Positions 4,611-58,492 are shown, counted from the first letter of the stretch. The stretch is DNA of 64,000 bases from a virus (IMGVR_UViG_3300025141_000018); one strand, 5' to 3'. A program made the numbers and translations. The notes: generated by a model not told the origin, from the letters alone.

Positions 4611-4663
4611 GTATATTAAATGAAAATTGGGAAATATGAGTATATTAAATGAAAATTGGGAAA
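4604..4663 (+). repeat. 29-bp tandem duplication spanning a stop/start junction
   Basis: aatatgagtatattaaatgaaaattgggaaa occurs at 4604-4634 and 4633-4663 (period 29). Confidence 0.95.
4607..4639 (+). other. 10-codon mini-ORF MSILNENWEI* created by the duplication
   Basis: ATG 4607 overlaps upstream TGA 4608-4610; its own TGA 4637-4639 overlaps ATG 4636. Confidence 0.5.
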
Positions 4664-6144
4664 AAAGAGGTAATTATATAGTTCATTCGTCGCATAATTT
4701 TGAATTAATGAAAAACAAACAAGACGAAATAGGTCCTGGGTTTTGTATAGCAAAGTGGAATCAAGTTTCGTTACATTTAGAAACAGGATTAACACATAGT
4801 TGTCATCATCCAACAGCTCATGAAATACCGTTAGCAGAATTAGAAAAAAATCCTTCTGCATTACACAATACAGAGTTTAAAAAACAACAAAGAAAACTCA
4901 TGCTTGAAGGTAATAGGCCTAAAGAATGCGATTATTGTTGGCGTATTGAAGATCAAAATCAGTATAGCGATCGGCAAATGAAAACTATCGAGCCTTGGGC
5001 ATTAAAAGATTTTGATGAAATAAGTTTAATGACCGGTGATGAAAATGTTCCTCCAAAATATTTAGAAGTTAGTTTTACTAATGCATGTAATCAAAAATGT
5101 ATATATTGTGGGCCTGAATTTAGTACGGCTTGGATAGAAGAATTGAAGGAACACGGACCAGTAGTAGTTCTAAAAGAATATAATAACTATAAACGTATAG
5201 AGCAAGGATGGCAAAATTTAGATGATCTTTATTATAAAAAAAATCAAACCAATCCTTATATAGATGCATTTTGGAAATGGTTTCCAGAAATTTATGATAA
5301 ATTAGAAATATACAGAATAACAGGAGGCGAACCTTTATTAAGCAAAGATACTTTTAAAAGTATGGAGTTTTTTTTAAAAAATCCCAATCCTAATTTAGCA
5401 TTAGCAATTAATAGTAACCTTAGTGTACCTGAAAAAGTATGGTCAAAATTTATAAATTTATGTAAAAATCTCATTACTTCAAAAGCAATAAGTAAATTAA
5501 CAATATTTACAAGTATAGAAAGTTGGGGCGAACAAGCAAATTATGCTAGATATGGTTTAGATTTTGATGTTTATAGACAACGTATAGAAGAAATTGCAAA
5601 TATAAATGATTTAAGATGTGTTTTTATGTCTACTTATAATATTTTGAGTGTACCTTCTTTTTATAAAATATTAGAATGGCAATTAGAGCTAAAGAAAAAA
5701 TACAATACAATAAATTTAGATAAAGAAAAACCATCACATTCTTGGTTGATGGGTATAGATATTCCGTACCTTAGACATCCTCAATATTTAGATGTAGGTA
5801 TTCTCACAGATGATATAAAAGAAAAATATATGTTACCTTGTTTAGATTTCATGAAAAACAATATTTCGTCAGACCATACTGGATTTGAAGAATACGAAAT
5901 GATTAAGTTTCAACGTATTATCGAATCATTTGATGTTCCTAAAAACAATAAAACAAAATTAAGTATACGTAGAGCAAAATTTTATGATGTAATAAATGAA
6001 ATGGACAAAAGACGAGGTACAAATTTTTTAAAGACTTTTCCTGAATTAAAAGAATTTTATTTTGAATGTGAAAAAAATAGGAATATGATAAAATATGCAG
6101 TAAATGTAGTAGTTGATAGAGAAGCATATGAGTACGGTCCATAA
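4636..6144 (+). CDS. Radical SAM protein with N-terminal twitch-like domain
   Basis: CNQKCIYC motif, ITGGEP, N-terminal FC..KW...SCHH...CDYC; start placed at the second duplicated ATG. Confidence 0.9.
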   Translation: MSILNENWEKRGNYIVHSSHNFELMKNKQDEIGPGFCIAKWNQVSLHLETGLTHSCHHPTAHEIPLAELEKNPSALHNTEFKKQQRKLMLEGNRPKECDYCWRIEDQNQYSDRQMKTIEPWALKDFDEISLMTGDENVPPKYLEVSFTNACNQKCIYCGPEFSTAWIEELKEHGPVVVLKEYNNYKRIEQGWQNLDDLYYKKNQTNPYIDAFWKWFPEIYDKLEIYRITGGEPLLSKDTFKSMEFFLKNPNPNLALAINSNLSVPEKVWSKFINLCKNLITSKAISKLTIFTSIESWGEQANYARYGLDFDVYRQRIEEIANINDLRCVFMSTYNILSVPSFYKILEWQLELKKKYNTINLDKEKPSHSWLMGIDIPYLRHPQYLDVGILTDDIKEKYMLPCLDFMKNNISSDHTGFEEYEMIKFQRIIESFDVPKNNKTKLSIRRAKFYDVINEMDKRRGTNFLKTFPELKEFYFECEKNRNMIKYAVNVVVDREAYEYGP

Positions 6145-7603
6145 AGCATTTTTAGAGCCTACTGTTAACTATATTAAACGAGTTCTCAATTCAAAAAGTA
6201 AATCATTTTGCGGAGCAAAATGGTATAATGCAACTATATGGTTAGGACAAGGAGTTAATTCTAGTTGTCATCATCCGCCTCCGCATCCTATAGACCAAAA
6301 TGAGATTAAAACTAATTATAAAGCAATTCATAATACAAAATATAAAAAATTAGTTCGTAAACAAATGTTAGAAGGAATCCGGCCTTCTGAATGCGAATAT
6401 TGTTGGAAAATAGAAGATAATAATATTAATAATATAAGTGATAGATTTCATAAAAGTGTAGTATATACAGAAAAAGAATTGCGAGATATTACTAAATTCA
6501 AATGGAATGAAGATGTAGATTTATTAACATTGGAAATTGCATTTGATAATAATTGTAATTTTGCATGTAGTTATTGTAATCCTACGTGCTCCGCTACATG
6601 GAGTAAAGATATAAGAACACATGGTGCATATAATAGTTTACAAGGAGCAGATGATGTCGGTTTAACATTTGCTCAAACCGGAGAATGGGCGTTACCATAT
6701 GGATCAAAAAATGAGAATAATCCTTATGTAGAAGCATTTTGGAAATGGTGGGGTGCCGATTTATGTATTACATTAAAAGAATTGCGGGTAACTGGTGGTG
6801 AACCAACTGTTAGTAATAATTTTTGGAAATTACTAGATTGGTGGAAAGAGCATAAAGAATGCCAAGTAATATTAGCAATTAATTCTAATTTGGGTTTTAA
6901 ATTTGAAATATGCGATAAATTAGTTAAAGCTAGCCATTATATAAACACATGTCATATTTACACAAGTAACGAAAGTTATGGCAAACATGCAGAATATATT
7001 AGAGATGGATTAGTTTGGGACCAATGGACTGATAATTTAAATATTATAGCAAAACATAGTAGAATAAAATTAATACATATAATGTTTACGGTTAATGCAT
7101 TGTGTTTAGCAAGCATTACAAAATTAATAGAATATATTTTTACTTTTCAAGAAACATATAAAGATATTAAAATAGATATGAGTTTTAATATCTTGCGGTG
7201 GCCTAGTTTTCAAAGTATTACAACATTACCTAAATATTTGGTTGAACAAAAAATTAAAGAATTGGAAGAATTTATAGAACATAATAGTCAGCCACCATAT
7301 TTTAAGGAAGGTTTAAAAAGTCATCAAGTAGATAGATTAATTACTTTAATAAATTATTTAAAAAACGAAGTTGAAGGATTTGATGGTGCAACCGATTTAA
7401 CCAAAAGACAACAAAATTTTAAAGCATTTTATACTCAATACGATCAACGCAGAAATAAATCTTTTATTGATACATTTGCTGATTGGCCGGAATTAGTTGA
7501 ATGGTATAATTCTTTAGATTATAAATTTGTACCTCAAGAACGAACTAGCGGTGTTCAACCTAAAAATGATCATTATAAAAGAGTGTTAGATGATAAAATA
7601 TGA
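6128..7603 (+). CDS. Radical SAM protein with N-terminal twitch-like domain, tandem paralog of 4636..6144
   Basis: CNFACSYC, VTGGEP, FCGAKW...SCHH...CEYC, shared NPY.EAFWKW. Confidence 0.9.
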   Translation: MSTVHKAFLEPTVNYIKRVLNSKSKSFCGAKWYNATIWLGQGVNSSCHHPPPHPIDQNEIKTNYKAIHNTKYKKLVRKQMLEGIRPSECEYCWKIEDNNINNISDRFHKSVVYTEKELRDITKFKWNEDVDLLTLEIAFDNNCNFACSYCNPTCSATWSKDIRTHGAYNSLQGADDVGLTFAQTGEWALPYGSKNENNPYVEAFWKWWGADLCITLKELRVTGGEPTVSNNFWKLLDWWKEHKECQVILAINSNLGFKFEICDKLVKASHYINTCHIYTSNESYGKHAEYIRDGLVWDQWTDNLNIIAKHSRIKLIHIMFTVNALCLASITKLIEYIFTFQETYKDIKIDMSFNILRWPSFQSITTLPKYLVEQKIKELEEFIEHNSQPPYFKEGLKSHQVDRLITLINYLKNEVEGFDGATDLTKRQQNFKAFYTQYDQRRNKSFIDTFADWPELVEWYNSLDYKFVPQERTSGVQPKNDHYKRVLDDKI

Positions 7604-8747
7604 AGATATTAAAAAAATTCACGTTGAATTAAGTTCAAAATGTAATGCTAATTGCCCTGGATGTCCTCGAAATGTTCAAGGAGGATATGAGCTCCCCTCA
7701 TTAAAAAAAGCAGAATTAAGTATAGATGATTTTAAAAAACTTTTTTTAAAAGATTTTTTAAAACAAATAGATTCGATTTTATTTTGCGGTAATTATGGCG
7801 ATCCTATTACTTGCAACGACATTATTCCTATATTAACTTATATTAAATCATGTAGTGACGCAAATATAAGAATTCATACTAATGGTAGTCTTAGAACACC
7901 CGAATTTTGGAAAAACATTGCAACTATTCTTTCGCCATCTGATACGATTATATGGAGTATAGATGGATTAAGCGACACGAATCATTTATATAGACGAGGT
8001 ACTGATTGGAATAAAATTATAGATAATGCAACTTCATTTATAGAAGCAGGAGGTATCGCAACTTGGGAATATTTAATTTTTAAGCATAACGAGCATCAAA
8101 TAAACGAAGCACGTGAATTATCAAAAAAATTAGGATTTCAATATTTCGCTCCTAAAAAAGCATTTGGGTTCGAATCAGACAATTATGCAGTTAAAGCAAT
8201 GCAAGTTGTTAATAAAAATGGTGATCATGATTATTTTATACATCCCCCCAGTGAGAAAAATAGAAATATAGATGTTTTAAAAGCAAAGCAAAATAAAAAC
8301 GAAAAACTATATCCTCATTCCTATAATCGTAATAAATTTATTGAAGATTATAATATAAAGTGTAAAGAATTAAATAAACTAGTTTCAGAAGGTTATTTTG
8401 ATTATTTAGATGATGTAGAAGTAAGTTGTAGTACCATAAACAATTCTGAGATATTTATAGATAGTTTCGGAGGAGTTCATCCGTGTTGTTACTTAGGACA
8501 TGTATCACAAGAAGCCGATTCACATGTAGAAATTCAATATGCTAATTTTATAAATATGCTAGGAACATCGTATAATTTTAATGGTATTACACATGGTGTT
8601 CGTTATATAGTAGAAAATTCATATTTTAATCTAATAAAAGAAACTTGGTCAAAGACTCATAGAAATGGCCGAATAGCACAATGCTCTAGAATGTGTTCAA
8701 AAAACGATAACATTATAGATAGTTTATATAATAAAGAAAATGCATAA
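7590..8747 (+). CDS. Radical SAM protein with C-terminal SPASM/twitch-like cysteines
   Basis: HVELSSKCNANCPGC, FCGNYGDP, C-terminal SC...HPCC...QCSRMC; paralog of 34454..35530. Confidence 0.9.
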   Translation: MIKYEDIKKIHVELSSKCNANCPGCPRNVQGGYELPSLKKAELSIDDFKKLFLKDFLKQIDSILFCGNYGDPITCNDIIPILTYIKSCSDANIRIHTNGSLRTPEFWKNIATILSPSDTIIWSIDGLSDTNHLYRRGTDWNKIIDNATSFIEAGGIATWEYLIFKHNEHQINEARELSKKLGFQYFAPKKAFGFESDNYAVKAMQVVNKNGDHDYFIHPPSEKNRNIDVLKAKQNKNEKLYPHSYNRNKFIEDYNIKCKELNKLVSEGYFDYLDDVEVSCSTINNSEIFIDSFGGVHPCCYLGHVSQEADSHVEIQYANFINMLGTSYNFNGITHGVRYIVENSYFNLIKETWSKTHRNGRIAQCSRMCSKNDNIIDSLYNKENA

Positions 8748-10380
8748 TTATAATTTTGTTTTTGAAAAAGACGATGTTGGTAATTTTTTAAAAAATAATC
8801 CTTTTGTTTTTAGCGTAGAAAATAACCAGGTTAATTACATAAAAAGAGCAACTGAGGTATTTTTTTATAAAATTAATTATGGAGCATATAGAAATCATAA
8901 AAATTACAATACTATTAAAAATATTACTCACCATCATATAAATTTTAATATAACAGATTTAGAAGATTTACCAGAAAAAGATTATTGTTATTATTATATA
9001 TCTTTTAATGTAATGTATGGTATGTTTCTACCACAAGGCTATGCTTCTAATAAAAGTAATGTAGAAAAAACAAGTAAAGAAGAAATTTTATCAACTTTGG
9101 AGAATAATTGTAAGTTTATTCTTCCAGATAAAATTAAAAAATTATTAGATAAAGATAAATGTAAAATTATTTTAGATACTTCCAAAGAAGGGGTCGGACA
9201 TATCTTACAATGGGATAAATTTTTTAAACTTACAAATTTAACACCTAATCAAGTTATACATACAACTGGAGATGTTTTATTAGGAAGTAACATTAGTATT
9301 CCGACTACATTTTATAATCAATGGGAAAGAAGCGTTGCAACATTATCATTTTCAAGACACCAGGAAGTAATACATAAATTAAAAGAATTAATATTAACTA
9401 AAGAGAAACGAAAATGGTATGGTTTATGTCTAAACAGAGTTACAAAACCCCACAGAATAGAAATTTGTAAATTTGCTGCCGAAAATTTACCAAATAAAAT
9501 AGATTATAGTTTTGGTTTGTTTAGTTGGAATACTTCGTTTGAACGAGATAAACAAACCGACAAGCCGTTAGATACCGCATTGTTTCAAGAATGGAAATAT
9601 CGTATAGCCAATGATACTGCTAGTTATTTTGCAACTCCAGCCGATGTTAAAGAATATTTTACATGGTTATCTGAACACGACGAAAAATCCAGTGATTTAG
9701 AACCCAACATACCATTTAGTCGTAATATGGTAACTTTTTTTAATCATAATTCATATTATAATTCTTATTTTAGTATTGTATGTGAAACATTTTATGAACA
9801 ACAAGGTGCCTTGTTTGTATCTGAAAAAATTTTTAAACCTATAGCATATTTACAACCATTTATTGTAATTGGCCAAGCATATGTTATAGAATATATGAGG
9901 CATTTAGGGTATGATGTATTTGATGATATAATAGATCATTCATATGATAAAATAGTAAATCCTAGACATAGAATGGATAAAATAAAAGAAGAATTAATTA
10001 GACTATGTCGTATATCATTAGACCAATGGTCTGATATTTTACATCATATATTTCCTAGATTATATAGCAATTATCATCATTTAAATTTAGCATTTTATAG
10101 AGATGATAAATTTCATATGCCTGTTCATGTAAATGAACCAAAATATTACGAACCAATACATTCTTTTGAAACAAAAGAAAAGTATAGAAAATTATCTAGT
10201 TTGCTTAATTCTAAAGTAGAACTATCTAACTCATTTTATTCGTCGTTGTATTCTAATATGGAATATGCCAATTCGACAGCCAGGACATACACTAATGAAA
10301 TATATAATTATCTTTCATTAAATAAAAACATAACTAATTCTTATTATAATAAAAACTATAATTATGATAGAACAACATAA
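8740..10380 (+). CDS. GT10 (fucosyltransferase)-like GT-B protein, copy 1 of 4
   Basis: LCLNR..KPHR, SIVCETF, FVSEKIFKPI...PFIVIG, GYDVFDDIIDHSYD; recalls the GT10 YxTEK...PIxxG motif. Confidence 0.5.
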   Translation: MHNYNFVFEKDDVGNFLKNNPFVFSVENNQVNYIKRATEVFFYKINYGAYRNHKNYNTIKNITHHHINFNITDLEDLPEKDYCYYYISFNVMYGMFLPQGYASNKSNVEKTSKEEILSTLENNCKFILPDKIKKLLDKDKCKIILDTSKEGVGHILQWDKFFKLTNLTPNQVIHTTGDVLLGSNISIPTTFYNQWERSVATLSFSRHQEVIHKLKELILTKEKRKWYGLCLNRVTKPHRIEICKFAAENLPNKIDYSFGLFSWNTSFERDKQTDKPLDTALFQEWKYRIANDTASYFATPADVKEYFTWLSEHDEKSSDLEPNIPFSRNMVTFFNHNSYYNSYFSIVCETFYEQQGALFVSEKIFKPIAYLQPFIVIGQAYVIEYMRHLGYDVFDDIIDHSYDKIVNPRHRMDKIKEELIRLCRISLDQWSDILHHIFPRLYSNYHHLNLAFYRDDKFHMPVHVNEPKYYEPIHSFETKEKYRKLSSLLNSKVELSNSFYSSLYSNMEYANSTARTYTNEIYNYLSLNKNITNSYYNKNYNYDRTT

Positions 10381-10861
10381 ATGTTTAATTATTATTGATC
10401 CGTGGGCTCGGCATGGTCCTGGAGAAACATATACAAAAATAATTTTATTATTAGAAAAAATAAAATATCCTGTTGTTATGGTTAATTATGACGAACCGCC
10501 TTATACATATATAGAACGAGCATGTAGAAATGGTACTAATCAAATGCCATATAATAACGGGGTTGATAGTTATAATTATAGCAATAGAATAACAACAAAT
10601 GATGAGTCAATTTTTTTGCGTTTTTTAATGCATAATAATATAACAGAATTATACTATTGTGGTGTTAGTTTTCCTGGTTGTGTTTGGCATCGACAATTAG
10701 GTATGCAATACATGAAAGATAAATTTAAATGTAATGTTGTAATTGATTTATGTGATAATAATTATACGCAAGGATCAACTGTTGATAAAATACATGCCCA
10801 ATATAAATTTGCCAAATTTAGGAATATTCCTGTAAAACATTCAAATGAAATATATTCATAA
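10364..10861 (+). CDS. Isochorismatase-like cysteine hydrolase fold protein
   Basis: LIIIDPW and ELYYCGVSFPGCV (Asp...Cys pattern); paralog of 17150..17698. Confidence 0.5.
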   Translation: MIEQHKCLIIIDPWARHGPGETYTKIILLLEKIKYPVVMVNYDEPPYTYIERACRNGTNQMPYNNGVDSYNYSNRITTNDESIFLRFLMHNNITELYYCGVSFPGCVWHRQLGMQYMKDKFKCNVVIDLCDNNYTQGSTVDKIHAQYKFAKFRNIPVKHSNEIYS

Positions 10862-12101
10862 TAAATTTTATTATTATTTTAAGAAATCAACAACAAATTA
10901 TAATATTTTAGGACGTGGATATTTCGGAAATCCTATTCAAGAATCTTTTTATTATGATGCAATTCCTCAATATCAAATACCTAAAGATAAGTATTCTTTA
11001 ATGTTTTGCATAAATCATAAAAAAATAAATGAATGGATAGATAATAAATTTAAAAAAATATCGTTATCAAATAATATTATTGATGACGTTAATAATGATA
11101 AATGTAACATTTTATTAAATCATAGCCACGAACCTTTTAATAATTTGCCTTTTGATCAAATAAAAAATCAATTTATAAATGTAAAGCAAGATAATTTAAT
11201 ATGGATAACAGGCGATAGTAATTTAAATATGTCTAATGAAATATCATCAACTTGGACAAATATTTTTGAAAGATTAACATATATGTTATTTCAAGGAAGT
11301 AACATAGCTAGAGAAGATTGGGTAGAATTGTTAGTGCAACAACATAACCGAATAACAAATAGAACTAATAGAAAACATAAATTATTATTATATATGCGTC
11401 GTCCTAAACCATGGAGGATTGCATTAATGAGTAAAATGTTTGAAAATAGTCTTGTTGAATCACAAGAAACAATCATATCCTGGGGAGGATCTTCTGGTAG
11501 CGGGTATAAAGAAACAACAAAATCTTCATGGGCTACATCATTAGATAGTATTAGAAATATTAATACTACTTGTTCCCAACAAGTATTGGATAAAATTTTA
11601 GATATTCAACATCCAATAAAATTAATAGGAAAAGAAAAAGTATTTCCTGACTTTACTATAGGTAAAAATCATAATTATCTTGTTTCGTCTATAGCAACTC
11701 CTTCACCGACATTAGATATAAACGATGTTGTTAATACATATTTTCAAATAGTATCTGAGGCCAGAATAGATAATAATATAGGTTTTATAACAGAAAAAAT
11801 ATATAAAACAATAGCAAGTATGCAACCATTTGTAATTTTTGGACCACCTAATACAGTAACATTTTTAGAAAATCAAGGATATAAAATTAAAAATAATTTT
11901 ATAGATCATAGTTACGATAAAATAGAAACAACAGAAAAAAGATTTAATGCATTATGGGCTGAAATCGAAAGATTAATGAAATTATCTCATAAGGAATGGG
12001 CAGATATTTTATATAATTTGTTACCAGACTTACTATACAATATTAATAATTTTCAGAAATGTTTTCATAGATTATATAATGAAAAATATATTGCAGAATA
12101 A
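10845..12101 (+). CDS. GT10-like protein, copy 2 of 4
   Basis: RRPKPWR, QIVSEA, FITEKIYKTIASMQPFVIFG, FIDHSYD. Confidence 0.5.
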   Translation: MKYIHNKFYYYFKKSTTNYNILGRGYFGNPIQESFYYDAIPQYQIPKDKYSLMFCINHKKINEWIDNKFKKISLSNNIIDDVNNDKCNILLNHSHEPFNNLPFDQIKNQFINVKQDNLIWITGDSNLNMSNEISSTWTNIFERLTYMLFQGSNIAREDWVELLVQQHNRITNRTNRKHKLLLYMRRPKPWRIALMSKMFENSLVESQETIISWGGSSGSGYKETTKSSWATSLDSIRNINTTCSQQVLDKILDIQHPIKLIGKEKVFPDFTIGKNHNYLVSSIATPSPTLDINDVVNTYFQIVSEARIDNNIGFITEKIYKTIASMQPFVIFGPPNTVTFLENQGYKIKNNFIDHSYDKIETTEKRFNALWAEIERLMKLSHKEWADILYNLLPDLLYNINNFQKCFHRLYNEKYIAE

Positions 12102-12840
12102 TACAATCGTTTTAACACAAATCCGTTCCGGAGGTACTGTTTTAGACTCGTTATTATCTCTCATTCATAAGAAAAAAAATATAGAATTTCATAATTTTTG
12201 GCAATATGTTCCTGATGCAGGTTCGCCTAAAGAATTGGAACAGCAATTTGAAAAAATATATGATAAAATTGCATTATTAAATGTAAAATGGAATATTCGA
12301 TTAATAATACCAGAATTAATAAATTTAAATAATGAAGGATATATTACAACGCCAGTGATATCAAAATTATTTAAAAAATTAATAACACCAGCAGTAAAAA
12401 TTTTTTTATATAGACAAGATATTGAGGATTGGTTTTTAAGTTATATAATTGCCGAAAAAACACAAGTATTTCATGTTAATGATATTAATAATAATTTAAA
12501 TTTAGATAAATCTTTTGATGTAAATGAAAACGAAATAATAAAATTTTTAGATACATTATTATTAACAAAAAATGTTTTTAATTTAATTGAAGATGATAAA
12601 ACAGTATATATAGAATATAATGATCTATTAAATAAAAAAATATTTTGTGAAGAATTAGGTATAACATTTACTGATAATGATAACACGTTTTTAGAAACAG
12701 ATAATAATGGATATCCAGTTAAAAAATTATATAGTAAAAATGAAAAAATAAATAGAATTAACAACTGGTCTAAAATTTCAAAAATTTTACATAATTATTG
12801 TAATTACCTCGGTTTTAACAATTCTTTTTTTTATGATTAA
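12079..12840 (+). CDS. Stf0-like sulfotransferase (P-loop)
   Basis: IVLTQIRSGGTVLDSLL (PAPS loop-like), IFLYRQD..DWFLS..IA..T.VF. Confidence 0.55.
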   Translation: MKNILQNNTIVLTQIRSGGTVLDSLLSLIHKKKNIEFHNFWQYVPDAGSPKELEQQFEKIYDKIALLNVKWNIRLIIPELINLNNEGYITTPVISKLFKKLITPAVKIFLYRQDIEDWFLSYIIAEKTQVFHVNDINNNLNLDKSFDVNENEIIKFLDTLLLTKNVFNLIEDDKTVYIEYNDLLNKKIFCEELGITFTDNDNTFLETDNNGYPVKKLYSKNEKINRINNWSKISKILHNYCNYLGFNNSFFYD

Positions 12841-15048: not shown

Positions 15049-15057
15049 AAAAATGTA

Positions 15058-17147: not shown

Positions 17148-17149
17148 AT

Positions 17150-17698: not shown

Positions 17699-17702
17699 CA
17701 AT

Positions 17703-18461: not shown

Positions 18462-18496
18462 TTTATGTAATAATAATTATACGCAAGAATTAACTG
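18457..18496 (+). pseudogene. 40-bp remnant of an isochorismatase-like gene 3' region
   Basis: 37/40 identical to 10742-10781; reads IDLCNNNYTQ versus IDLCDNNYTQ; sits in the gap before ugd. Confidence 0.7.
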
Positions 18497-18525
18497 AAAA
18501 GATAAAAATATATAAAGGATAAATT

Positions 18526-20527: not shown

Positions 20528-20549
20528 AACAGAATGGAGATACACAAAA

Positions 20550-22759: not shown

Positions 22760-22761
22760 AT

Positions 22762-27432: not shown

Positions 27433-27566
27433 AAGAAAAGATTAAACGAAAATTAGAAGTTATATGGTATTATATCTCATGGCCCTATAATTATATAAAA
27501 CTAGAAATTCGTTATAGGAAAAAATTAAAAGCACTTCGCGAACAAGACCCGTTCATTTATGATTGA
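27429..27566 (+). CDS. Small 45-aa protein (missed by the ORF track)
   Basis: MKEKIKRKLEVIWYYISWPYNYIKLEIRYRKKLKALREQDPFIYD*; ATGA-coupled to the carbamoyltransferase and overlaps the next start, filling the gap exactly. Confidence 0.75.
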   Translation: MKEKIKRKLEVIWYYISWPYNYIKLEIRYRKKLKALREQDPFIYD

Positions 27567-49398: not shown

Positions 49399-50597
49399 AA
49401 TCTATTTTGCATTTAAAAGATTCAGATACATTTTGTTTATTACCGTTTATGCATACATACGGAAGTGCTGATGGTAACCTTGTATTATGCTGTGAAGCAC
49501 AGGAATATGAGTGCGGAAAGGGCGGTAAAACGCTCGACAGCAGGTGGAATAGCAAAGAGTATAAAGAAGTACGTAAAGCACTAGTAGGAGGTACTAAGCA
49601 TAAGGCATGTCATGTATGTTGGCACAACGAAAAGAACGGTATAGAAAGTAATAGGCAGTTACACACCGAACAACATTGGAATGAGTTTGCACCGCTTATA
49701 CAATTAAATGATGACTATACAGTAAGCAATCAGCCATTGTGGTTTGAGTTAAAGATAGGAAACTTTTGTAACCTTGCTTGCAGAATGTGCAGTACTCATA
49801 GCAGTTATAAACGAGCCCAAGATATTGATATTATAGGTAAGTATAGTGGGTTTGACAATCAAGAAACAAAACTTGTAACACCTGATGATTTGTTTGCAAT
49901 ACTGCAAAGTGATGTAGATTGGACACAAGTAGAACGATTACAGTTTACAGGTGGCGAACCTATAATAAATGAAATGCATTACGATTTATTGTATAGTATA
50001 CCTAGAGAGTATAGGCATTTAATTCGTTTGCGTTATGCAACGAATTTAACACATTTAAAGTATAGACAACACGACTTAATAGATATATGGAGGCAATTTA
50101 AACATGTCAATGTTAAAGTCAGTATGGATGGCGCTGGCGCTGTTTATGATTATATACGTGTTGGCGGTAGTTTTAGTACTGTCGCAAACAACATGAACGA
50201 GTTAAAGAATGTTGATAATGTAGATATAGCAGTAGGTTTAACTATACAAGTTTACAACGTATTTGCATTACCCGAATTTTTTGATTTTATAAATAAAATT
50301 GGAATCAACTTTAGTTTCGTTGGTTCCTTTTTATTACAAACTCCAAAGTACCTTAATATATCAGTATTACCACAACATTTAAAAGATCAAATTTGCGATA
50401 AACTTAGCAAGTATAATGGAAAAGTTAACATACATAGACACGATAATTTTGATACTATTATAGAGTATATGCAAAAAAATGATAACGAAAAATTATTTTG
50501 GAAAAAAACTATGCCATACACAGAAGACATGGAACGTCGACATCCAGATAGTATAACATTTAGTAACTTACTTAAAGAACATGGAATCACAATATAA
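49395..50597 (+). CDS. Radical SAM protein with N-terminal twitch-like domain
   Basis: FCLLPF...LCC...CHVC; GNFCNLACRMC; FTGGEP. Confidence 0.9.
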   Translation: MKSILHLKDSDTFCLLPFMHTYGSADGNLVLCCEAQEYECGKGGKTLDSRWNSKEYKEVRKALVGGTKHKACHVCWHNEKNGIESNRQLHTEQHWNEFAPLIQLNDDYTVSNQPLWFELKIGNFCNLACRMCSTHSSYKRAQDIDIIGKYSGFDNQETKLVTPDDLFAILQSDVDWTQVERLQFTGGEPIINEMHYDLLYSIPREYRHLIRLRYATNLTHLKYRQHDLIDIWRQFKHVNVKVSMDGAGAVYDYIRVGGSFSTVANNMNELKNVDNVDIAVGLTIQVYNVFALPEFFDFINKIGINFSFVGSFLLQTPKYLNISVLPQHLKDQICDKLSKYNGKVNIHRHDNFDTIIEYMQKNDNEKLFWKKTMPYTEDMERRHPDSITFSNLLKEHGITI

Positions 50598-52074
50598 TCC
50601 AATAGAAATTGGTATTAAAAATATGAACCATAAGTTTATAAACTTTTTGGTTTATCCTGATTGGAATTCAAGAAGACACAATCGTAAGCATTTACCTTTA
50701 TTTGAAAAATTACAAGAATTAACACACTGGGGTTCTTCTGATATATTTTATGCTATGAATTATGCATATGTACCTGAAATGTGGATACCACAAGCCATAA
50801 TACAAGCAAATAGATTGGGCATGGAAATAGTTAATATTTTTTATATAGGTACATCAATTACTGATAGTGAAGTAGATTTTATAAACAAGATTATAGAGTA
50901 TCATATAAACGTAAAAGAAGAATTACATAAAACTAATGATAAATTTGTATTAGCCGGAGAAATAGAACAGAATAACATATATCCAGAATTTAAACGAAGT
51001 TACATATTAGTTAATATTGATAATTATATTTTACACGGTTGTCCTCGATTTATTATAGAACCTGAATTACATTATACATATTGTTGCACACATTATGATG
51101 AGTTTGAACGAGGTACTGCACACGGGTTATGGCCCGATACTGAAAAAATGGGAAAACAAATACCTCCGCCGAGTTTAGGATGGAGTGCTCCGGCAATATC
51201 AACAATTTTATCATGGGGAACGCCAGTACTACAACTACCAGAAACAATAACAAAAGAACTCCATACAGTTCCGTGGGACGAAGATAGAGATTACTGGCAA
51301 GATGTGTATTGTGATAATCCACATAAGTTAAAACAGTTATGCTATGATTACGAAATGGATCCCCAGTACGAAGAAGTTCGTAGCAAGCACGAACTTAATA
51401 AAATTATTCCTCCGGAATATGGAGGCAAGGCTGTTCCGTTTATTTTAAACACAGAAGATTATATTGAAGAAAAAAGATTAGCAGATGATTATAAATTAAC
51501 AAATGTAATAACTATTGCGGCAGGATTTAAATTTATAAATTTAATAGATGTATTAGAACACACCGAAGATTGTAAAATTATATTTTATGATTATAATAAA
51601 CAAACACTAGGCCTTAAAAAACATATCATGGACAAGTGGAATGGTAAGAGCGATTTAAAAGAATTTTTAACAAAGGAATATCCAAAGTTAGTTAAGGAAT
51701 ACTGGAATGATCACGCATGGTTTAGAGATCAACGTGATCTTCCTAAGTTACAGTCGTTATTTTTAAAATCTAGAAAATGGGACAACGAATATCATTGCCT
51801 TGATATTTTACATGACTTAGATAGTTTTCTAGATATAATACCAGACGAAGCAGGAACGGTTGTGTTTGTAAGTAATATATTTGATTTTGTTCAAAATTGG
51901 ATTTTAGGAACATTAACATTAACTGAAATTTGGATTAAATTTATAAGACATTTGCAAACATATGAAAACGATATATTAATAATTGGAGCAGATCCACAAC
52001 GTAATACAATATTTGATTTTGCTAAAAATATAGGTTCAATCAGACCAAATAAATTACATACATGGGAGTCATAA
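50581..52074 (+). CDS. Hypothetical protein; C-terminal SAM-transferase-like Rossmann domain shared with 52804 and 53706
   Basis: VITIAAGF...KIIFYDYN...W.G; VFVSNIFD. Confidence 0.5.
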   Translation: MESQYNPIEIGIKNMNHKFINFLVYPDWNSRRHNRKHLPLFEKLQELTHWGSSDIFYAMNYAYVPEMWIPQAIIQANRLGMEIVNIFYIGTSITDSEVDFINKIIEYHINVKEELHKTNDKFVLAGEIEQNNIYPEFKRSYILVNIDNYILHGCPRFIIEPELHYTYCCTHYDEFERGTAHGLWPDTEKMGKQIPPPSLGWSAPAISTILSWGTPVLQLPETITKELHTVPWDEDRDYWQDVYCDNPHKLKQLCYDYEMDPQYEEVRSKHELNKIIPPEYGGKAVPFILNTEDYIEEKRLADDYKLTNVITIAAGFKFINLIDVLEHTEDCKIIFYDYNKQTLGLKKHIMDKWNGKSDLKEFLTKEYPKLVKEYWNDHAWFRDQRDLPKLQSLFLKSRKWDNEYHCLDILHDLDSFLDIIPDEAGTVVFVSNIFDFVQNWILGTLTLTEIWIKFIRHLQTYENDILIIGADPQRNTIFDFAKNIGSIRPNKLHTWES

Positions 52075-52829
52075 TGAAACATCCTTATTTTACACCCGAT
52101 ACAGTTCAAGATAAAGAAACAGTAGAGCTTAAACATGAAATATTTAATAACGAAATGTATCGTGATACATTATATAATGTATTAACAGAATATGAGAAAA
52201 CTAAAGATATTGAGGCTATTACAATGAGTTTGTTGCCTTTTTTAAAAATACAAACTTCTGTACCGCATAAAGAAATGCTTGATGAAGCAAAACGATTACT
52301 ACCATTTTTTGTTAATCATAGAGGAGATGCATACAACTGGAAAAGTTTATGCTTGTGGGGATTAAGTCATGCACATACAGGCGTTCCTGAAGATTATGGC
52401 ATGGAAGAAACCGACGAACTAGAAGAACAGTATATGGATTGGACAGATATGTCTAAATTTTGTCCTACTACTAAAAATTGGTTAGAAAATGATTTTGGAT
52501 TTAATAGTTTTACTAGAGTACGTTTCATGGTACTTAATCCAGGTGGATACATTAAACCACATAGTGATACCGATCATCACGAACTAATTGCCATTAATAT
52601 TGCATTAAACATGCCAGAAAAATGTTGCTTTATAGTAGACAAATATGGATGCTTACCTTTAAATGAAGGTGATATATTTTTGCTTAATAATACAAATAAA
52701 CATTGGTTATTTAATAACTCAACTGTGCCTCGTATACATATGATAATTTATGGCGGTCGGAACTGGAATTGGTGGGAGAAAAAAATTGTAGAAGGTTTAA
52801 ACAATGCCAATAAGTTATACAATAAATGA
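52074..52829 (+). CDS. Aspartyl/asparaginyl beta-hydroxylase-like Fe(II)/2OG oxygenase
   Basis: RVRFMVL.PGGYIKPHSD, NIALN.P, KH...N.S..PRIHM; TAATG coupling and ggag SD favour 52074. Confidence 0.75.
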   Translation: MKHPYFTPDTVQDKETVELKHEIFNNEMYRDTLYNVLTEYEKTKDIEAITMSLLPFLKIQTSVPHKEMLDEAKRLLPFFVNHRGDAYNWKSLCLWGLSHAHTGVPEDYGMEETDELEEQYMDWTDMSKFCPTTKNWLENDFGFNSFTRVRFMVLNPGGYIKPHSDTDHHELIAINIALNMPEKCCFIVDKYGCLPLNEGDIFLLNNTNKHWLFNNSTVPRIHMIIYGGRNWNWWEKKIVEGLNNANKLYNK

Positions 52830-53682
52830 TATTGATTTTACTAATGCTAAACACAAAACTTGGGCAATATTTGCAAAAAGATTGTATCAAGATATAAAGT
52901 TTGATAGCAAAGCAGATATAATATTAGAGCCCGGGCAGTTTGTTGATAACCATAAAATATATGATTTACGTGATCAAGATTCATATGTGTTTAAAACATG
53001 GTATAAGGATTGGGCTAACTTGGGCGATACTGTTTGGCTATGGCATTCAGATGAATTAAGCATACCGGAGTTATACTTAGATGCAAATTATAACACAATA
53101 GTTACACCCGGAAGTGGCTTTTATGCTTACGAGACATGGTGTAAATTAGGAAGACCTGATGCTAAAATTATAATTTATGATTATAATCCACATGCAATTA
53201 ATTTTCAAAATGCATTACATGATCACTTTAATGGTCACGAATATAATGCATTTGTTAATGAATACATGGATCAAAATAGAGAAATATATGCTCCTCCAAA
53301 TACTGATAATAAAGTGTTTAACGAAACACACTGGCAGGAATATCTAAAACTAGATATACAAATTTTACAAACCAATTTGTTGTATGATAACATTATTTTT
53401 TCATATACAAAAGGTAAAACATTTTTTAGTGTATCTGATATATTCGATTATCCAGAGTTACTATTAGAATACGGATACGATAAACTTAAAAAATACTATC
53501 TTGATTTTTTAAAATTTGGGAAAATAAATATAGGAAAGACAATTATATATTTTGAAAAACCTAACAATGCATATGTTGATGCTGAACTTAAAGAGCATCC
53601 GTGGCATGAATATTTAGAATTTAAAATACCAGCAGATACCATGTTGTATCTGTACGGTACAAGGTTTGATTTACGCCTATAA
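52804..53682 (+). CDS. Hypothetical protein, same SAM-transferase-like domain family
   Basis: IVTPGSGF...KIIIYDYNP.AI.FQ; FSVSDIFD. Confidence 0.5.
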   Translation: MPISYTINDIDFTNAKHKTWAIFAKRLYQDIKFDSKADIILEPGQFVDNHKIYDLRDQDSYVFKTWYKDWANLGDTVWLWHSDELSIPELYLDANYNTIVTPGSGFYAYETWCKLGRPDAKIIIYDYNPHAINFQNALHDHFNGHEYNAFVNEYMDQNREIYAPPNTDNKVFNETHWQEYLKLDIQILQTNLLYDNIIFSYTKGKTFFSVSDIFDYPELLLEYGYDKLKKYYLDFLKFGKINIGKTIIYFEKPNNAYVDAELKEHPWHEYLEFKIPADTMLYLYGTRFDLRL

Positions 53683-53685
53683 ATA
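53678..53685 (+). promoter_or_regulatory. Candidate T4-like late promoter TATAAATA
   Basis: Exact match ending 20 nt before ATG 53706, at one of the few true intergenic gaps. Confidence 0.5.
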
Positions 53686-56411: not shown

Positions 56412-57332
56412 ATGTTAGAACCAGAAAACATTATAACAAGACAAAGTATATCGTCTCGCCGTCTTCCTCCTCGGCGTGCTAGATTAATAGATCAAACAAA
56501 GTTTATTTATAGTGAATATCTTTCCGGAACTGCTGGCGATTTCTTTAGTCAATTTACTGCTGGAAGTAGTCCAAGTATAATAGCATTTAATAAAATTTTA
56601 CAAAAAGAATTACCTGCTGAACATGCTTTGTTTAATGTAAATAGCGGATCACTTACAACTGTTAGAGGTGTTAATTTTAGTTCAAAAAATGTTATTGAAG
56701 GATGTTTATTTGATCAAGTAGCAAGTTTAAAAAATGTATTAGAAGGATTGTTAATATATCAACTATCAAGAGAATGTGCAGGTAGGTGGACAAGAGAATA
56801 TTTAGAGGAATACTTGCAAATAAAGAAAGTATTTTTTACAACGCATCCACATAAATGTACTGGTTACAAAACAAATGTACTAAGATTAAAGCAAGAATTA
56901 GGAAATAATTTGACATCAGTTGCGTTAATGCCATCAACATTTGAAAGTTTTTATTTCATGTGTAGTTATAGAGTATTAGGAAAGTCTATACATCAAAATA
57001 CTGAGAAGTCAAAAGAAACTGCTAGAAGTAATACTGAATCTTTATTAGAAGAATTTGCTTCATGGCTACAAGATATAAAGCATAGAAAAGATATTATATT
57101 TGTTGATCATATGAATGGTATTATAAACAATAAAGACAACTTTGTCAACCAAATGGAAGACATTTTTGGCATAATTGATAAAGAATATTCTGATTATGTA
57201 ATAGATTCTTACAAAGAAAAACGATATAATAATAATTTAGATCGCATGGATAATTGGAAGGCAACTATGGAAAGAGAGTGGCTTTCTAGCGAATATGCAG
57301 TAGATATTTTACCAGAGCTAAGTATAATATGA
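56412..57332 (+). CDS. Hypothetical protein, possible degenerate sulfotransferase/P-loop
   Basis: IYSEYLSGTAGDFF N-terminal motif, similar to 35505. Confidence 0.45.
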   Translation: MLEPENIITRQSISSRRLPPRRARLIDQTKFIYSEYLSGTAGDFFSQFTAGSSPSIIAFNKILQKELPAEHALFNVNSGSLTTVRGVNFSSKNVIEGCLFDQVASLKNVLEGLLIYQLSRECAGRWTREYLEEYLQIKKVFFTTHPHKCTGYKTNVLRLKQELGNNLTSVALMPSTFESFYFMCSYRVLGKSIHQNTEKSKETARSNTESLLEEFASWLQDIKHRKDIIFVDHMNGIINNKDNFVNQMEDIFGIIDKEYSDYVIDSYKEKRYNNNLDRMDNWKATMEREWLSSEYAVDILPELSII

Positions 57333-58492
57333 GTTTAAATAAAAGTAGTTACGATTTCACTAAAATCCCTTTTGATGATTTAGTTAGAGTCGGCCAACGT
57401 AATATGTTATATAGAGACCTATTTACAGTCTCTTGGTTGCTCGGCAGATTTTGTAACTATCAATGTTCATATTGTTGGACCCATGGAAGGAGTAACAAAC
57501 ATGATCATAGACCAACCGATATGTGTCTACGAGCCATTGACCGGATCAAAGAACAAGCACGAGAGCGTGACTTTAATAGTTTTCATTTTAGCCTCTCTGG
57601 GGGTGAGCCTACATTGCATCCTGGTTACCTCGATATATTACAGCACCTTAATGATGATGTAAGTAACACAAACTATACCAGTGTACATATGACTTCAAAT
57701 TGTTCACCGGGTATGAAGTGGTTTGGAGAATATGTTAAAGCAGTAAAAGATTTTCACAGAGCAAGTATTACATGCAGTTATCATCGAGAGTACATTAAAA
57801 ATCCTAAAAAGCAACAACAGTTAGCAGATAAGTTAGTGCTTTGTCAAGAACATGATGTACAAGTTACAATTAATTGTGTTATGGTTCCTGAGTGGTTTTG
57901 GTTAATAATGGACGAAGTAAACCTGTTTCATGAACGTGGCATTAATGTAACATTAAAACCACAAAGTGATCCTAATGCTAATTTTATCGTATCAGGATAC
58001 GATGATGAAATGCTTGAAATGTTGCATAATGGTATGCCTCAACGAGGGTTTACTGAAGCAAAAAACAAGCATGTCAAGCGACCCGAACCAACATTTGTCA
58101 AACGTCCCGACCCAATTTACTGGGAAGAAAATAATAATGTACCGCAACATTTTCAAGTAGAATTTAGAGATAAAGATAAAAAATATTGGTTTATGGATCA
58201 AGCCGAACGATTTAATGCCTTTGAATTTAATAAGTTTAAAGGGTGGGAATGTAGTAGTGGATATAGAGGTATTATAATACGTGAACCCGATGGTAGCATA
58301 AAACGTTCGTATAGTTGTGACGACGAAGCACTAGGATACATATATGACGATTTTAAGTTATTTGATGGACCAAAAGTTTGTATCAGTAAAACATGTGTAA
58401 GTTCAGCAGATAGTAAAATACCTAAACGTAAACCAGGAACTCAATTACCTTTGTGGCCAGGAGATAAAACATATGAGCTTCAATCTGTTTAA
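57329..58492 (+). CDS. Radical SAM protein (third subtype, C-terminal Cys cluster)
   Basis: VSWLLGRFCNYQCSYC, SGGEP, C-terminal WEC...C...C..SAD. Confidence 0.9.
   Translation: MSLNKSSYDFTKIPFDDLVRVGQRNMLYRDLFTVSWLLGRFCNYQCSYCWTHGRSNKHDHRPTDMCLRAIDRIKEQARERDFNSFHFSLSGGEPTLHPGYLDILQHLNDDVSNTNYTSVHMTSNCSPGMKWFGEYVKAVKDFHRASITCSYHREYIKNPKKQQQLADKLVLCQEHDVQVTINCVMVPEWFWLIMDEVNLFHERGINVTLKPQSDPNANFIVSGYDDEMLEMLHNGMPQRGFTEAKNKHVKRPEPTFVKRPDPIYWEENNNVPQHFQVEFRDKDKKYWFMDQAERFNAFEFNKFKGWECSSGYRGIIIREPDGSIKRSYSCDDEALGYIYDDFKLFDGPKVCISKTCVSSADSKIPKRKPGTQLPLWPGDKTYELQSV

What the first reader, a model, noticed from the sequence alone, without database searches (positions are those of the whole stretch)
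4636..58492. Thirteen radical SAM paralogs in three subtypes, ten with the auxiliary Fe-S domain at the N-terminus
Seen: CxxxCxxC in 13 ORFs. Ten (4636, 6128, 29083, 35986, 37713, 39764, 40887, 46167, 48289, 49395) begin with C..P/K(W/F)...CC...CxxC before the SAM motif; two (7590, 34454) carry it C-terminally; one (57329) is distinct. Established: SPASM/twitch domains are normally C-terminal and occur in peptide-modifying enzymes and sugar dehydrogenases such as BtrN. Inference: a permuted family expanded for many distinct sugar or peptide C-H chemistries. No precursor peptide gene is visible, so the substrate is probably a large protein or a glycan.
Basis: partly seen in the sequence, partly recalled or inferred. 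Interest (0 to 1): 0.75.

Follow-up and report, generated by a model that had tools for sequence, protein, structure and literature searches.

The report
Phage array of N-twitch radical-SAM enzymes
An uncultured marine giant phage carries 13 intact radical-SAM enzyme genes, ten of them old, individually conserved members of a catalogued but untested family whose extra iron-sulfur domain sits at the front of the protein; their neighbours suggest they edit a sugar-like molecule, by chemistry nobody has yet shown.

Summary
Thirteen ORFs carry CxxxCxxC, against 0.13 expected by chance. Ten also carry an N-terminal Cys module. Two carry a related module at the C-terminus, and one is distinct.

The permuted family is not new. 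All ten score 220-399 bits against NCBIfam NF033640 (N_Twi_rSAM; cut-off 170). Their four conserved N-terminal Cys align with the four auxiliary-cluster ligands of BtrN.

The ten are ancient paralogs, not a recent expansion. Nine of the ten have their own ortholog in a sister phage, with dN/dS of 0.06-0.39.

A core cassette recurs in most of 38 further viral contigs fetched through the amidinotransferase. It holds five N_Twi genes, a C-terminal-twitch rSAM, a StrB1/HsvA-like amidinotransferase, a probable PLP aminotransferase and a His-rich protein.

The window also holds four GT-B glycosyltransferase-like paralogs, a UDP-sugar dehydrogenase, sugar isomerase and epimerase genes, a carbamoyltransferase and a mini-SDR. 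It encodes no membrane protein. In one bacterium, four N_Twi genes sit in an O-antigen ABC-exporter cluster.

My best reading (about 0.55) is late-expressed, cytoplasmic tailoring of an amino- or guanidino-carbohydrate. The acceptor is unknown. Protein, DNA-base and free-metabolite targets are not excluded.

This scan found the same kind of array before on other phage DNA. A 2017 paper noted 12 rSAM genes in a marine T4-like genome.

The parts
4636..6144 (+). N_Twi radical SAM paralog (single-Cys + HH variant of the twitch)
   Evidence: NF033640 315.7 bits against cut-off 170. Ortholog in G001 at 94% identity, dN/dS 0.39.
6128..7603 (+). N_Twi radical SAM paralog (single-Cys + HH variant)
   Evidence: NF033640 288.8 bits. 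G001 ortholog at 96%, dN/dS 0.36.
7590..8747 (+). Radical SAM enzyme with a C-terminal PCC twitch-like module
   Evidence: Pfam Radical_SAM. C-terminal Cys pattern and hhalign to the N-twitch profile, P 2.2e-4. 31% identical to 34454.
29083..30300 (+). N_Twi radical SAM paralog with no ortholog in sister phage G001
   Evidence: NF033640 320.5 bits. Sits on a long branch in the tree; best G001 hit only 31%.
34454..35530 (+). Radical SAM enzyme with a C-terminal PCC twitch-like module
   Evidence: 66% identical to a G005 ortholog. This type has a homologue in 33-35 of 38 related loci.
35986..37176 (+). N_Twi radical SAM paralog (the one modelled)
   Evidence: NF033640 385 bits. AlphaFold2 model pLDDT 92.6. 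Core closest to anSME, BlsE, SkfB and viperin, Z 13.1-13.7.
37148..37720 (+). 190-aa mini short-chain dehydrogenase/reductase
   Evidence: TGxxxGxG, NSSA and YGTEK motifs are visible in the sequence. A 51%-identical homolog carries Pfam adh_short. Orthologs in G002 and G005.
37713..39113 (+). N_Twi radical SAM paralog; best-conserved member of the core cassette
   Evidence: NF033640 399.3 bits. Median 65% identity across 35 of 38 related loci. dN/dS 0.09.
39764..40900 (+). N_Twi radical SAM paralog
   Evidence: NF033640 263.9 bits. G001 ortholog at 89%.
40887..42197 (+). N_Twi radical SAM paralog, core cassette
   Evidence: NF033640 302.5 bits. Homologue in 35 of 38 related loci, median 43%.
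42180..43007 (-). Conserved antisense 275-aa protein with invariant His/Asp residues; possible non-haem iron oxygenase (inference only)
   Evidence: Homologue in 28 of 38 related loci, placed directly beside the amidinotransferase. Invariant H130, H141, D143, H149 and H237. No PDB sequence match.
44449..45498 (+). Amidinotransferase (StrB1 / HsvA / AGAT superfamily)
   Evidence: Profile against PDB: HsvA E 4e-32, StrB1 2.5e-30, SxtG 5e-26. The C-terminal GGIHC-T catalytic Cys motif is aligned. 36 of 39 viral loci with a homolog hold 2-8 N_Twi genes within 10 kb.
46167..47381 (+). N_Twi radical SAM paralog lacking the hairpin-end Cys (three-Cys site), core cassette
   Evidence: NF033640 258.4 bits; Pfam SPASM E 5.6e-12. 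P-D-V-H replaces the CC doublet. 33 of 37 best-matching ORFs in other loci also lack the doublet.
47378..48292 (+). Probable fold-type I PLP aminotransferase (short form)
   Evidence: Atlas feature score 0.99 to viral clusters named aminotransferase class I/II, 20-27% of whose members carry PF00155. D165..S190-x-x-K193..R201 motif is invariant in orthologs. Homologue in 32 of 38 loci. No PDB sequence hit.
48289..49398 (+). N_Twi radical SAM paralog, core cassette
   Evidence: NF033640 220 bits. dN/dS 0.06.
49395..50597 (+). N_Twi radical SAM paralog, core cassette
   Evidence: NF033640 319.4 bits. Median 47% identity in 35 of 38 loci.
52062..52829 (+). Asp/Arg beta-hydroxylase-type cupin oxygenase
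   Evidence: Pfam PF05118 E 5e-15. Orthologs in G002 and G005.
57329..58492 (+). Third type of radical SAM enzyme, no twitch detected
   Evidence: Pfam Radical_SAM only. Best NCBIfam hit is viperin at 46.5 bits against cut-off 180. 66-74% identical in G002 and G005. No PDB sequence hit.
8740..22037 (+). Variable sugar-handling half. Holds four GT-B glycosyltransferase-like paralogs (8740, 10845, 15058, 20550), a UDP-Glc/GDP-Man dehydrogenase (18526) and a weak sulfotransferase match (12833).
   Evidence: Paralogy shown. AlphaFold2 model of 15058, pLDDT 81.8. The Foldseek top 50 are almost all GT-B glycosyltransferases, though E >= 2e-3. VIA Z 9.3-10.2 to GT-B enzymes including alpha-1,3-fucosyltransferases. 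Pfam results.
22037..27432 (+). NAD-synthase-like PP-loop enzyme, ribulose-phosphate 3-epimerase, SnoaL-like protein, SIS sugar isomerase and carbamoyltransferase
   Evidence: Pfam.
531..538 (+). T4-type late-promoter-like TATAAATA, 43 nt before the first cluster gene
   Evidence: The motif is depleted overall, 9 seen against 27 expected. Position shown.
53678..53685 (+). Second TATAAATA, 28 nt before ATG 53706; conserved in G001
1..564 (+). C-terminal end of a structural, fibre-like protein with eleven GYS triplets (runs of eight and three), directly upstream of the cluster

Best explanation
The ten ORFs are separate, long-diverged members of the curated family NF033640 (N_Twi_rSAM). Each is a radical SAM barrel preceded by a twitch domain that should hold one auxiliary [4Fe-4S] cluster. 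Nine have four Cys ligands; paralog 46167 has three, which would leave an open iron site as in MoaA. Two more enzymes carry the same PCC-type module at the usual C-terminal place, and one further radical SAM enzyme is of another type. I infer that each N_Twi enzyme abstracts a hydrogen atom from a different position or intermediate of a carbohydrate-like substrate (sugar, cyclitol or glycan). The resulting keto or dehydrated intermediates would be passed to the conserved partners: a PLP aminotransferase, a mini-SDR reductase, an amidinotransferase and iron oxygenases. In this phage, four GT-B glycosyltransferase-like proteins, a carbamoyltransferase and possible sulfo- and methyltransferases would then build on the product. 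This is the logic of BtrN plus BtrS, AprD4 plus AprD3 and StrB1 in aminoglycoside pathways. The pathway is soluble and probably expressed late. I guess that its amino- or guanidino-sugar product ends up on a virion part such as the fibre encoded just upstream. Shown here: family membership, the twitch homology, the age and conservation of the paralogs, and the linked partner genes. Inferred: the substrate class, the reactions and the acceptor.
For: Family membership: NF033640 scores of 220-399 bits for all ten.
Twitch homology: Pfam SPASM matches the N-terminus. The N-terminal profile's best PDB hit is BtrN 169-237, with all four cluster Cys aligned. In the AlphaFold2 model (pLDDT 92.6) a beta-hairpin lies between Cys1 and the CC doublet, and the CxxC sits on a helix.
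Ancient paralogs: the tree needs 10 separate placements for the 10 window copies, and orthologs exist in G001 and G002. dN/dS is 0.06-0.39.
Small-molecule partners: the amidinotransferase matches HsvA and StrB1 at E 1e-30 to 1e-32, and 36 of 39 loci with a homolog sit inside N_Twi arrays. The aminotransferase-like gene is present in 32 of 38 loci. A mini-SDR is present.
Sugar context in the window: UDP-sugar dehydrogenase, ribulose-phosphate epimerase, SIS isomerase and carbamoyltransferase, plus four GT-B-like proteins.
Bacterial context: four N_Twi genes lie between Wzm/Wzt and RmlC/RmlD on one side and a TylF-type methyltransferase and a WbsX glycosyltransferase on the other. Two further glycan contexts were seen.
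Soluble pathway: no ORF has a transmembrane-grade hydrophobic segment.
Late expression: TATAAATA sites lie at two of the few intergenic gaps, and one is conserved in G001.
Against: No member of the family has been assayed, so the substrate is inferred from neighbours only.
No nucleotidyltransferase or NDP-sugar 4,6-dehydratase was recognised, and about 50 of the 69 listed ORFs have no Pfam match.
Of seven bacterial contexts read, one was a nif cluster and three were uninformative.
Structure searches rank peptide-modifying enzymes (anSME, SkfB, CteB) level with sugar- and nucleotide-acting ones (BlsE, viperin, MoaA).
The amidinotransferase is as close to the polyamine enzyme HsvA as to StrB1, so the scaffold need not be a sugar.
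The GT-B assignment rests on fold matches of middling strength (Foldseek E >= 2e-3, Z about 10).
G002 and G005 keep the rSAM core without these GT-B paralogs.
Oxygen-dependent 2OG/cupin enzymes share the cluster with oxygen-labile rSAM enzymes.
Confidence: 0.55

Rival explanations
1. The enzymes modify a protein. They would crosslink, epimerise or oxidise residues of virion proteins, such as the fibre protein with the GYS repeat encoded just upstream or the Cys-rich fibres elsewhere in this genome. This would resemble SPASM/twitch maturases acting on a large protein substrate (QhpD- or anSME-like).
For: The closest solved cores include anSME, SkfB, CteB and SuiB. The cluster directly follows a structural-looking gene with eleven GYS triplets. 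In G005 and G004 the arrays lie close to giant fibre-sized ORFs. The promoters look late. An Asp/Arg-hydroxylase-type cupin is present.
Against: The conserved partners are small-molecule enzymes: amidinotransferase, aminotransferase and SDR. No RRE or leader-peptide gene is conserved with the array. Relatives with N_Twi arrays have giant ORFs with 0.0-0.2% Cys, so the arrays do not track Cys-rich fibres. One bacterial array sits in an O-antigen cluster.
Confidence: 0.15
2. The cassette hypermodifies the phage DNA. It would build an amino-, guanidino- or sugar-bearing side chain on a base (as T4-like phages glycosylate hydroxymethylcytosine, or as thymidine hypermodification uses rSAM and PLP enzymes), protecting the genome from host nucleases.
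For: The phage is T4-like (earlier notes). The GT-B model also matches T4 alpha-glucosyltransferase bound to DNA at Z 8.9, within about 1 of the best rows. The amidinotransferase is closest to a polyamine enzyme. The pathway is soluble and probably late.
Against: No DNA-binding, nucleotide kinase or base-hydroxymethylase gene was recognised in the window. Bacterial relatives sit in exported-polysaccharide clusters. Ten or more radical enzymes is far more than any known DNA modification route needs (my own knowledge).
Confidence: 0.12
3. The cassette makes a free small molecule, for example an aminoglycoside-like or guanidino compound, that acts on the host or on competitors and is not attached to anything.
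For: An rSAM enzyme with an aminotransferase, an SDR and an amidinotransferase is the enzyme set of aminocyclitol antibiotic pathways (BtrN/BtrS, AprD4/AprD3, StrB1; my own knowledge, and for BtrN). No acceptor protein and no exporter was identified.
Against: Four glycosyltransferase-like genes and the repeated position next to fibre genes suggest attachment to something. There is no resistance or export gene. Late-promoter-like sites fit virion assembly better.
Confidence: 0.1

Closest known systems
NCBIfam NF033640, N_Twi_rSAM ('twitch domain-containing radical SAM protein')
   Same: All ten ORFs match the model end to end above its curated cut-off, with the twitch placed N-terminal to the radical SAM core.
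   Different: Nothing differs at family level. The family has no tested member that I could find. Here it occurs as ten distinct orthogroups in one phage cluster.
BtrN, the 2-deoxy-scyllo-inosamine dehydrogenase of butirosin biosynthesis (PDB 4M7S/4M7T)
   Same: It has one auxiliary [4Fe-4S] cluster on four Cys. Its Cys spacing C-x17-C-x44-CxxC aligns with the N_Twi spacing C-x17-CC-x48-CxxC. It acts on an aminocyclitol and hands a ketone to an aminotransferase (PMC9012708). Here an aminotransferase-like gene lies between N_Twi genes.
   Different: BtrN's twitch is C-terminal. The sequence match is marginal (E 0.064 for the domain alone). The cores are no closer to each other than to other SPASM/twitch enzymes. 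The substrate here is unknown.
MoaA (GTP 3',8-cyclase)
   Same: It is a twitch enzyme whose auxiliary cluster has three Cys and an open iron that binds substrate (PMC9012708). Paralog 46167 and most of its best-matching ORFs in other phages keep only three Cys. Core match Z 12.3.
   Different: TIGR02666 scores are 25-45 bits against a cut-off of 284, and the domain order is reversed.
Marine T4-like environmental viral genome TARA_ERS488813_N000010 (Nishimura et al. 2017, PMC5332604)
   Same: It is a T4-like marine phage genome reported to hold 12 radical SAM genes together with Fe-S assembly genes.
   Different: That paper counted the genes as Fe-S proteins only. It did not assign a family, paralog structure or pathway context. 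I did not compare the sequences.
StrB1 / HsvA / SxtG amidinotransferases
   Same: ORF 44449 aligns over its full length with the catalytic Cys motif preserved.
   Different: Here the enzyme is embedded in radical SAM arrays of phages. Its amine acceptor is unknown.

Membership tests
NF033640 N_Twi_rSAM | Whole-protein HMM score above the curated cut-off of 170 bits | tested here: met
   Scores of 315.7, 288.8, 320.5, 385, 399.3, 263.9, 302.5, 258.4, 220 and 319.4 bits. ORFs 7590 and 57329 score 35-38 bits, and the model is not among the listed hits of 34454 (max E 0.01), so these three are not members.
NF033640 N_Twi_rSAM | Twitch (half-SPASM) Cys module placed N-terminal to the CxxxCxxC motif | tested here: met
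   Pfam SPASM matches residues ~6-90. C6, C74 and C77 are invariant and C24/C25 are at least 90% conserved in 30 sequences. The four Cys align with the BtrN ligands.
SPASM domain proper (two auxiliary clusters) | Seven to eight Cys binding two [4Fe-4S] clusters | tested here: not met
   Only four or five conserved Cys lie ahead of the SAM motif.
BtrN-type radical SAM dehydrogenase | Fully Cys-ligated single auxiliary cluster | tested here: met
   Four aligned Cys in nine of the ten paralogs. This is a sequence alignment only; metal content was not measured.
BtrN-type radical SAM dehydrogenase | Two-electron oxidation of a secondary alcohol on a sugar or cyclitol | not testable with these tools
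   This needs enzyme assays. Only an adjacent aminotransferase-like gene (47378) hints at it.
RiPP radical SAM/SPASM maturases | Co-located precursor peptide gene and a peptide-recognition (RRE) domain | tested here: not met
   Genes overlap or abut, and the only small ORF (45 codons, 27429-27566) is absent from all but the sister phage. No RRE/PqqD match at E <= 0.01. All RiPP-maturase NCBIfam models score far below their cut-offs.
Anaerobic sulfatase-maturing enzyme (TIGR03942) | HMM score above the cut-off of 349 bits | tested here: not met
   The best score is 50.6 bits, for 46167.
Prokaryotic viperin (NF038283), considered for 57329 | HMM score above the cut-off of 180 bits | tested here: not met
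   46.5 bits.
Amidinotransferase superfamily (for 44449) | Full-length homology and a catalytic Cys in the C-terminal H-C-x-T motif | tested here: met
   HsvA E 4e-32 over residues 3-349. GGIHCVT aligns with GSFHCAT and is invariant in orthologs.
GT-B glycosyltransferases (for 8740, 10845, 15058, 20550) | Two-Rossmann GT-B fold with a C-terminal nucleotide-sugar-binding half | tested here: inconclusive
   The Foldseek top 50 are almost all GT-B, but E >= 2e-3 and TM is about 0.3. VIA Z is 9.3-10.2. There is no Pfam or PDB sequence match. Many of the 7,731 sequence relatives match only the C-terminal ~110 residues.

The most novel reading that the evidence does not exclude
Large marine phages carry a self-contained, membrane-free pathway. 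In it a set of five or more specialised N-twitch radical SAM enzymes, an aminotransferase and an amidinotransferase build an amino- or guanidino-carbohydrate of a kind not yet described, and the phage attaches it to its own fibres or DNA. This would be a phage counterpart of aminoglycoside chemistry, and each paralog would be a new carbohydrate C-H-activating reaction.
Probability: 0.3. Interest if true: 0.8.

Novelty: new member of a known kind. Interest (0 to 1): 0.55.

Why it matters
The N_Twi family is very large in ocean metagenomes (5,507 hits from one query) but rare in sampled bacteria (3 of 401 Pseudomonadota). It has no characterised member that I could find. Phages keep five to thirteen distinct copies under purifying selection and spend tens of kilobases on them, so the product must matter for infection. 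Finding that product would assign function to thousands of genes. It would probably add several new radical reactions on carbohydrates, and it would show what large marine phages put on their particles or DNA. The conserved amidinotransferase and aminotransferase partners narrow the search to an amine- or guanidine-bearing product. Cultured Vibrio phages with a small version of the array make the question testable.

Tried and rejected
**Searches that were unavailable or found nothing**
- No whole genome is held for this window, so the rest of the phage could not be searched.
- DNA similarity to cultured phages found nothing.
- A genome-collection scan with the ten-paralog alignment failed because the alignment is too diverged. 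A single-protein scan found only two MAG contigs, probably phage DNA binned with bacteria.
- Three literature searches (N-terminal twitch with phage; the family's product name; radical SAM with O-antigen and SPASM) found no characterised member.

**Searches that did not discriminate**
- Foldseek and VIA searches with the N_Twi model matched only the common radical SAM core. They do not separate sugar-acting from peptide-acting relatives.
- PDB sequence searches found nothing for 47378, 57329, the GT-B-like family, 37148 or 42180.
- PHROGs gave no function for the partner genes.

**Ideas tested and dropped or weakened**
- A link to the Cys-rich fibres noted earlier in this genome: relatives with N_Twi arrays have Cys-poor giant ORFs, so there is no co-occurrence.
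- The Wzt-N_Twi fusion as a recurrent architecture: it was seen only in G108 among 133 genomes of its class. I therefore count it as adjacency, not as a proven fusion.
- The 45-codon ORF as a conserved precursor peptide: it is absent outside the sister phage.
- Bacterial contexts of more distant homologs were mixed: a sulfatase neighbourhood, GDSL hydrolases, a nif cluster, or nothing telling. One look-up found no record.

**Not possible with these tools**
- Model coordinates could not be read, so Cys-Cys distances in the predicted cluster site were not measured.

Full report
**What is there**

The window is a block of about 67 genes at about 30% G+C. Nearly all lie on the plus strand and overlap or abut each other. 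No whole genome is held for it. Earlier notes of this scan describe the genome as an uncultured marine T4-like jumbo phage.

Thirteen ORFs carry one CxxxCxxC each. Chance would give 0.13 such motifs in the 21,453 residues examined; 500 shuffles gave at most 2.

**The ten N-terminal-domain ORFs belong to a known family**

All ten named ORFs match NCBIfam NF033640, 'N_Twi_rSAM, twitch domain-containing radical SAM protein', end to end. Scores are 220-399 bits against a cut-off of 170.

Pfam SPASM matches residues ~6-90 above its gathering score in five of the ten.

A profile of the N-terminal domains alone finds BtrN residues 169-237 as its best match in the whole PDB. The E-value is marginal at 0.064, but all four auxiliary-cluster Cys of BtrN (169, 187, 232, 235) align with the four conserved N_Twi Cys. 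The next match is the SPASM domain of SuiB.

An AlphaFold2 model of ORF 35986 is confident (pLDDT 92.6). It places a beta-hairpin between the first Cys and the CC doublet, and puts the CxxC on a helix. I could not read the coordinates, so the geometry of the site is not measured.

The barrel (residues 109-350) is closest to SPASM/twitch-group enzymes: anSME Z 13.7, BlsE 13.6, SkfB 13.1, viperin 13.1, MoaA 12.3. This does not tell sugar-acting from peptide-acting enzymes.

**Subtypes**

- Seven paralogs have the CC doublet.
- ORFs 4636 and 6128 have one Cys followed by HH.
- ORF 46167 has none. Of 37 ORFs in other phages that best match it, 33 also lack the doublet. It may therefore have a three-Cys site with an open iron, as MoaA has (PMC9012708).
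- ORFs 7590 and 34454 (31% identical) carry C-x18-PCC-x~64-CxxxC at the C-terminus. hhalign aligns this with the N-terminal module (P 2.2e-4). Both domain orders therefore coexist in one cluster.
- ORF 57329 is a third type: viperin model 46.5 bits against a cut-off of 180, and no PDB sequence match.

**Old paralogs, not a recent expansion**

The ten are 19-31% identical to the first sequence in the alignment.

Related IMG/VR contigs hold 10, 11, 7, 4 and 2 copies over the cut-off. In a maximum-likelihood tree of 46 sequences, the ten window copies need ten separate placements. Nine pair with an ortholog in sister contig G001, and most also pair with one in G002.

G001 is collinear with the window at 56-99% protein identity, with a few gene-sized indels. 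dN/dS between the two is 0.06-0.39 for the twelve radical SAM genes that have an ortholog there.

**Distribution**

One query found 5,507 relatives in the metagenome protein collection. Cultured phages give only about 22%-identical matches, mostly large Vibrio phages. Vibrio phage K566 has five N_Twi-type genes, two of them over the cut-off.

Among 401 Pseudomonadota genomes, 3 have the family. One of those is probably binned phage DNA.

Nishimura et al. 2017 already reported a marine T4-like genome with 12 radical SAM genes (PMC5332604). This scan has reported similar N_Twi arrays on other phage DNA, with the same reading.

**What travels with them**

- ORF 44449 is an amidinotransferase. It matches HsvA at E 4e-32, StrB1 at 2.5e-30 and SxtG at 5e-26, with the catalytic Cys motif kept.
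- Thirty-nine viral loci encode a homolog of it. Thirty-six of these hold 2-8 N_Twi genes within 10 kb.
- Across the 38 loci other than G001, 35 have homologues of 37713, 40887, 46167, 48289 and 49395. Homologues of the C-twitch rSAMs are in 33-35, ORF 47378 in 32, and ORF 42180 (minus strand) in 28, the last directly beside the amidinotransferase.
- These loci were fetched through the amidinotransferase, and some are near-duplicates. The counts therefore show linkage, not independent events.
- ORF 47378 is probably a short fold-type I PLP aminotransferase. The atlas score is 0.99, and the D..SxxK..R motif is invariant. No PDB sequence match confirms it.
- ORF 37148 is a 190-residue SDR with TGxxxGxG, NSSA and YGTEK motifs.
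- ORF 42180 has invariant His and Asp residues that suggest an iron oxygenase, but it has no detectable homolog of known structure.

The first half of the window is shared only with G001. It holds:
- four paralogs whose model is GT-B glycosyltransferase-like;
- a UDP-Glc/GDP-Man dehydrogenase, a ribulose-phosphate epimerase, a SIS isomerase, an NAD-synthase-like enzyme and a carbamoyltransferase;
- a weak sulfotransferase match.

Read by eye only, further ORFs look like a HAD phosphatase (25604), methyltransferases (27559 and the C-terminal part of 31419), a sulfotransferase (45473) and DxD glycosyltransferases (3639, 28380). These by-eye assignments are low-confidence.

No ORF has a membrane-spanning segment.

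**Bacterial context**

In genome G108 the contig is chromosomal, carrying DnaE and AccA. The gene order there is RmlC, RmlD, Wzm, a Wzt in one frame with an N_Twi enzyme, three more N_Twi genes, a TylF-type methyltransferase, another methyltransferase and a WbsX glycosyltransferase.

- The in-frame fusion was not seen in 132 other genomes of the class, so I count only the adjacency.
- G179 has an N_Twi gene beside a GT2 and a sugar epimerase/dehydratase.
- A further homolog sits by a GT2-ABC2 gene, an ABC ATPase and ManC.
- Four other contexts were a nif cluster or uninformative.

**Expression**

TATAAATA is three-fold depleted in the window (9 seen, 27 expected). Even so, it stands 43 nt before the first cluster gene and 28 nt before ATG 53706. 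The second site is conserved in G001. I read these as T4-type late promoters. That is inference.

**Reading**

The conserved partners are enzymes of small-molecule amine and ketone chemistry. Together with the glycan context, they favour carbohydrate tailoring. The logic would be that of BtrN plus an aminotransferase, AprD4 plus a reductase, and StrB1 (my own knowledge for the latter two; for BtrN).

A soluble, late pathway next to fibre genes suggests attachment to the virion. DNA or a free metabolite are equally untested.

The protein-substrate rival keeps some weight, because the structural neighbours include peptide maturases and the cluster follows a GYS-repeat protein. Against it, no precursor gene is conserved with the array, and the arrays do not track Cys-rich fibres.

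**Verdict**

The family is known and catalogued. The copies are new members of it. Function is still unknown, but it is now framed by conserved partners and testable in cultured Vibrio phages.

Noticed in passing
window 1-564 (+): This is the 3' end of a structural-looking gene that runs off the window. It encodes eleven GYS triplets (runs of eight and three), flanked by Thr/Gly-rich sequence, directly upstream of the enzyme cluster. No GYS repeat was found in the four related contigs searched.
   Followed up: partly
window 27429-27566 (+): A 45-codon ORF, basic and rich in Trp/Tyr, fills the largest 'gap'. It overlaps the upstream stop (ATGA) and the downstream start (ATGATTGA). It is 91% conserved in G001 with synonymous changes, and absent from all other loci held.
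   Followed up: yes
window 531-538 and 53678-53685 (+): TATAAATA is three-fold under-represented in the window, yet it occupies two of the very few intergenic spots. The second site is conserved in G001 at 45231.
   Followed up: partly
window versus G001 (L026-L028): Synonymous divergence between orthologous genes of the two phages ranges from 0.06 to 1.04 along one collinear cluster. Five window genes (13644, 19763, 22037, 29083, 39091) have no ortholog in G001. This points to mosaic exchange of cassette parts.
   Followed up: partly
window 30297-31433 (-) and 42180-43007 (-): Two genes lie antisense inside the otherwise one-directional cluster. The second is conserved next to the amidinotransferase in 28 related loci, in either orientation.
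   Followed up: partly
G003:C1:31085-33052 and G007:C47:66525-69038: Open frames of 885-886 residues each hold two radical SAM matches in tandem. These may be fused double enzymes.
   Followed up: no
L046 4235-5959 (-) and homologs P0125-P0150: A bacterial subfamily of about 570-650 residues has an insertion of roughly 200 residues between the N-terminal twitch and the radical SAM core. Some sources name these proteins glutamate-1-semialdehyde aminomutase.
   Followed up: no
window 33236-34467, 43856-44452, 60444-61034 (+): Four paralogous proteins of about 200 residues; one gives a weak Pfam 2OG-Fe(II) oxygenase match. Oxygen-dependent enzymes therefore sit beside oxygen-sensitive radical SAM enzymes.
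   Followed up: no
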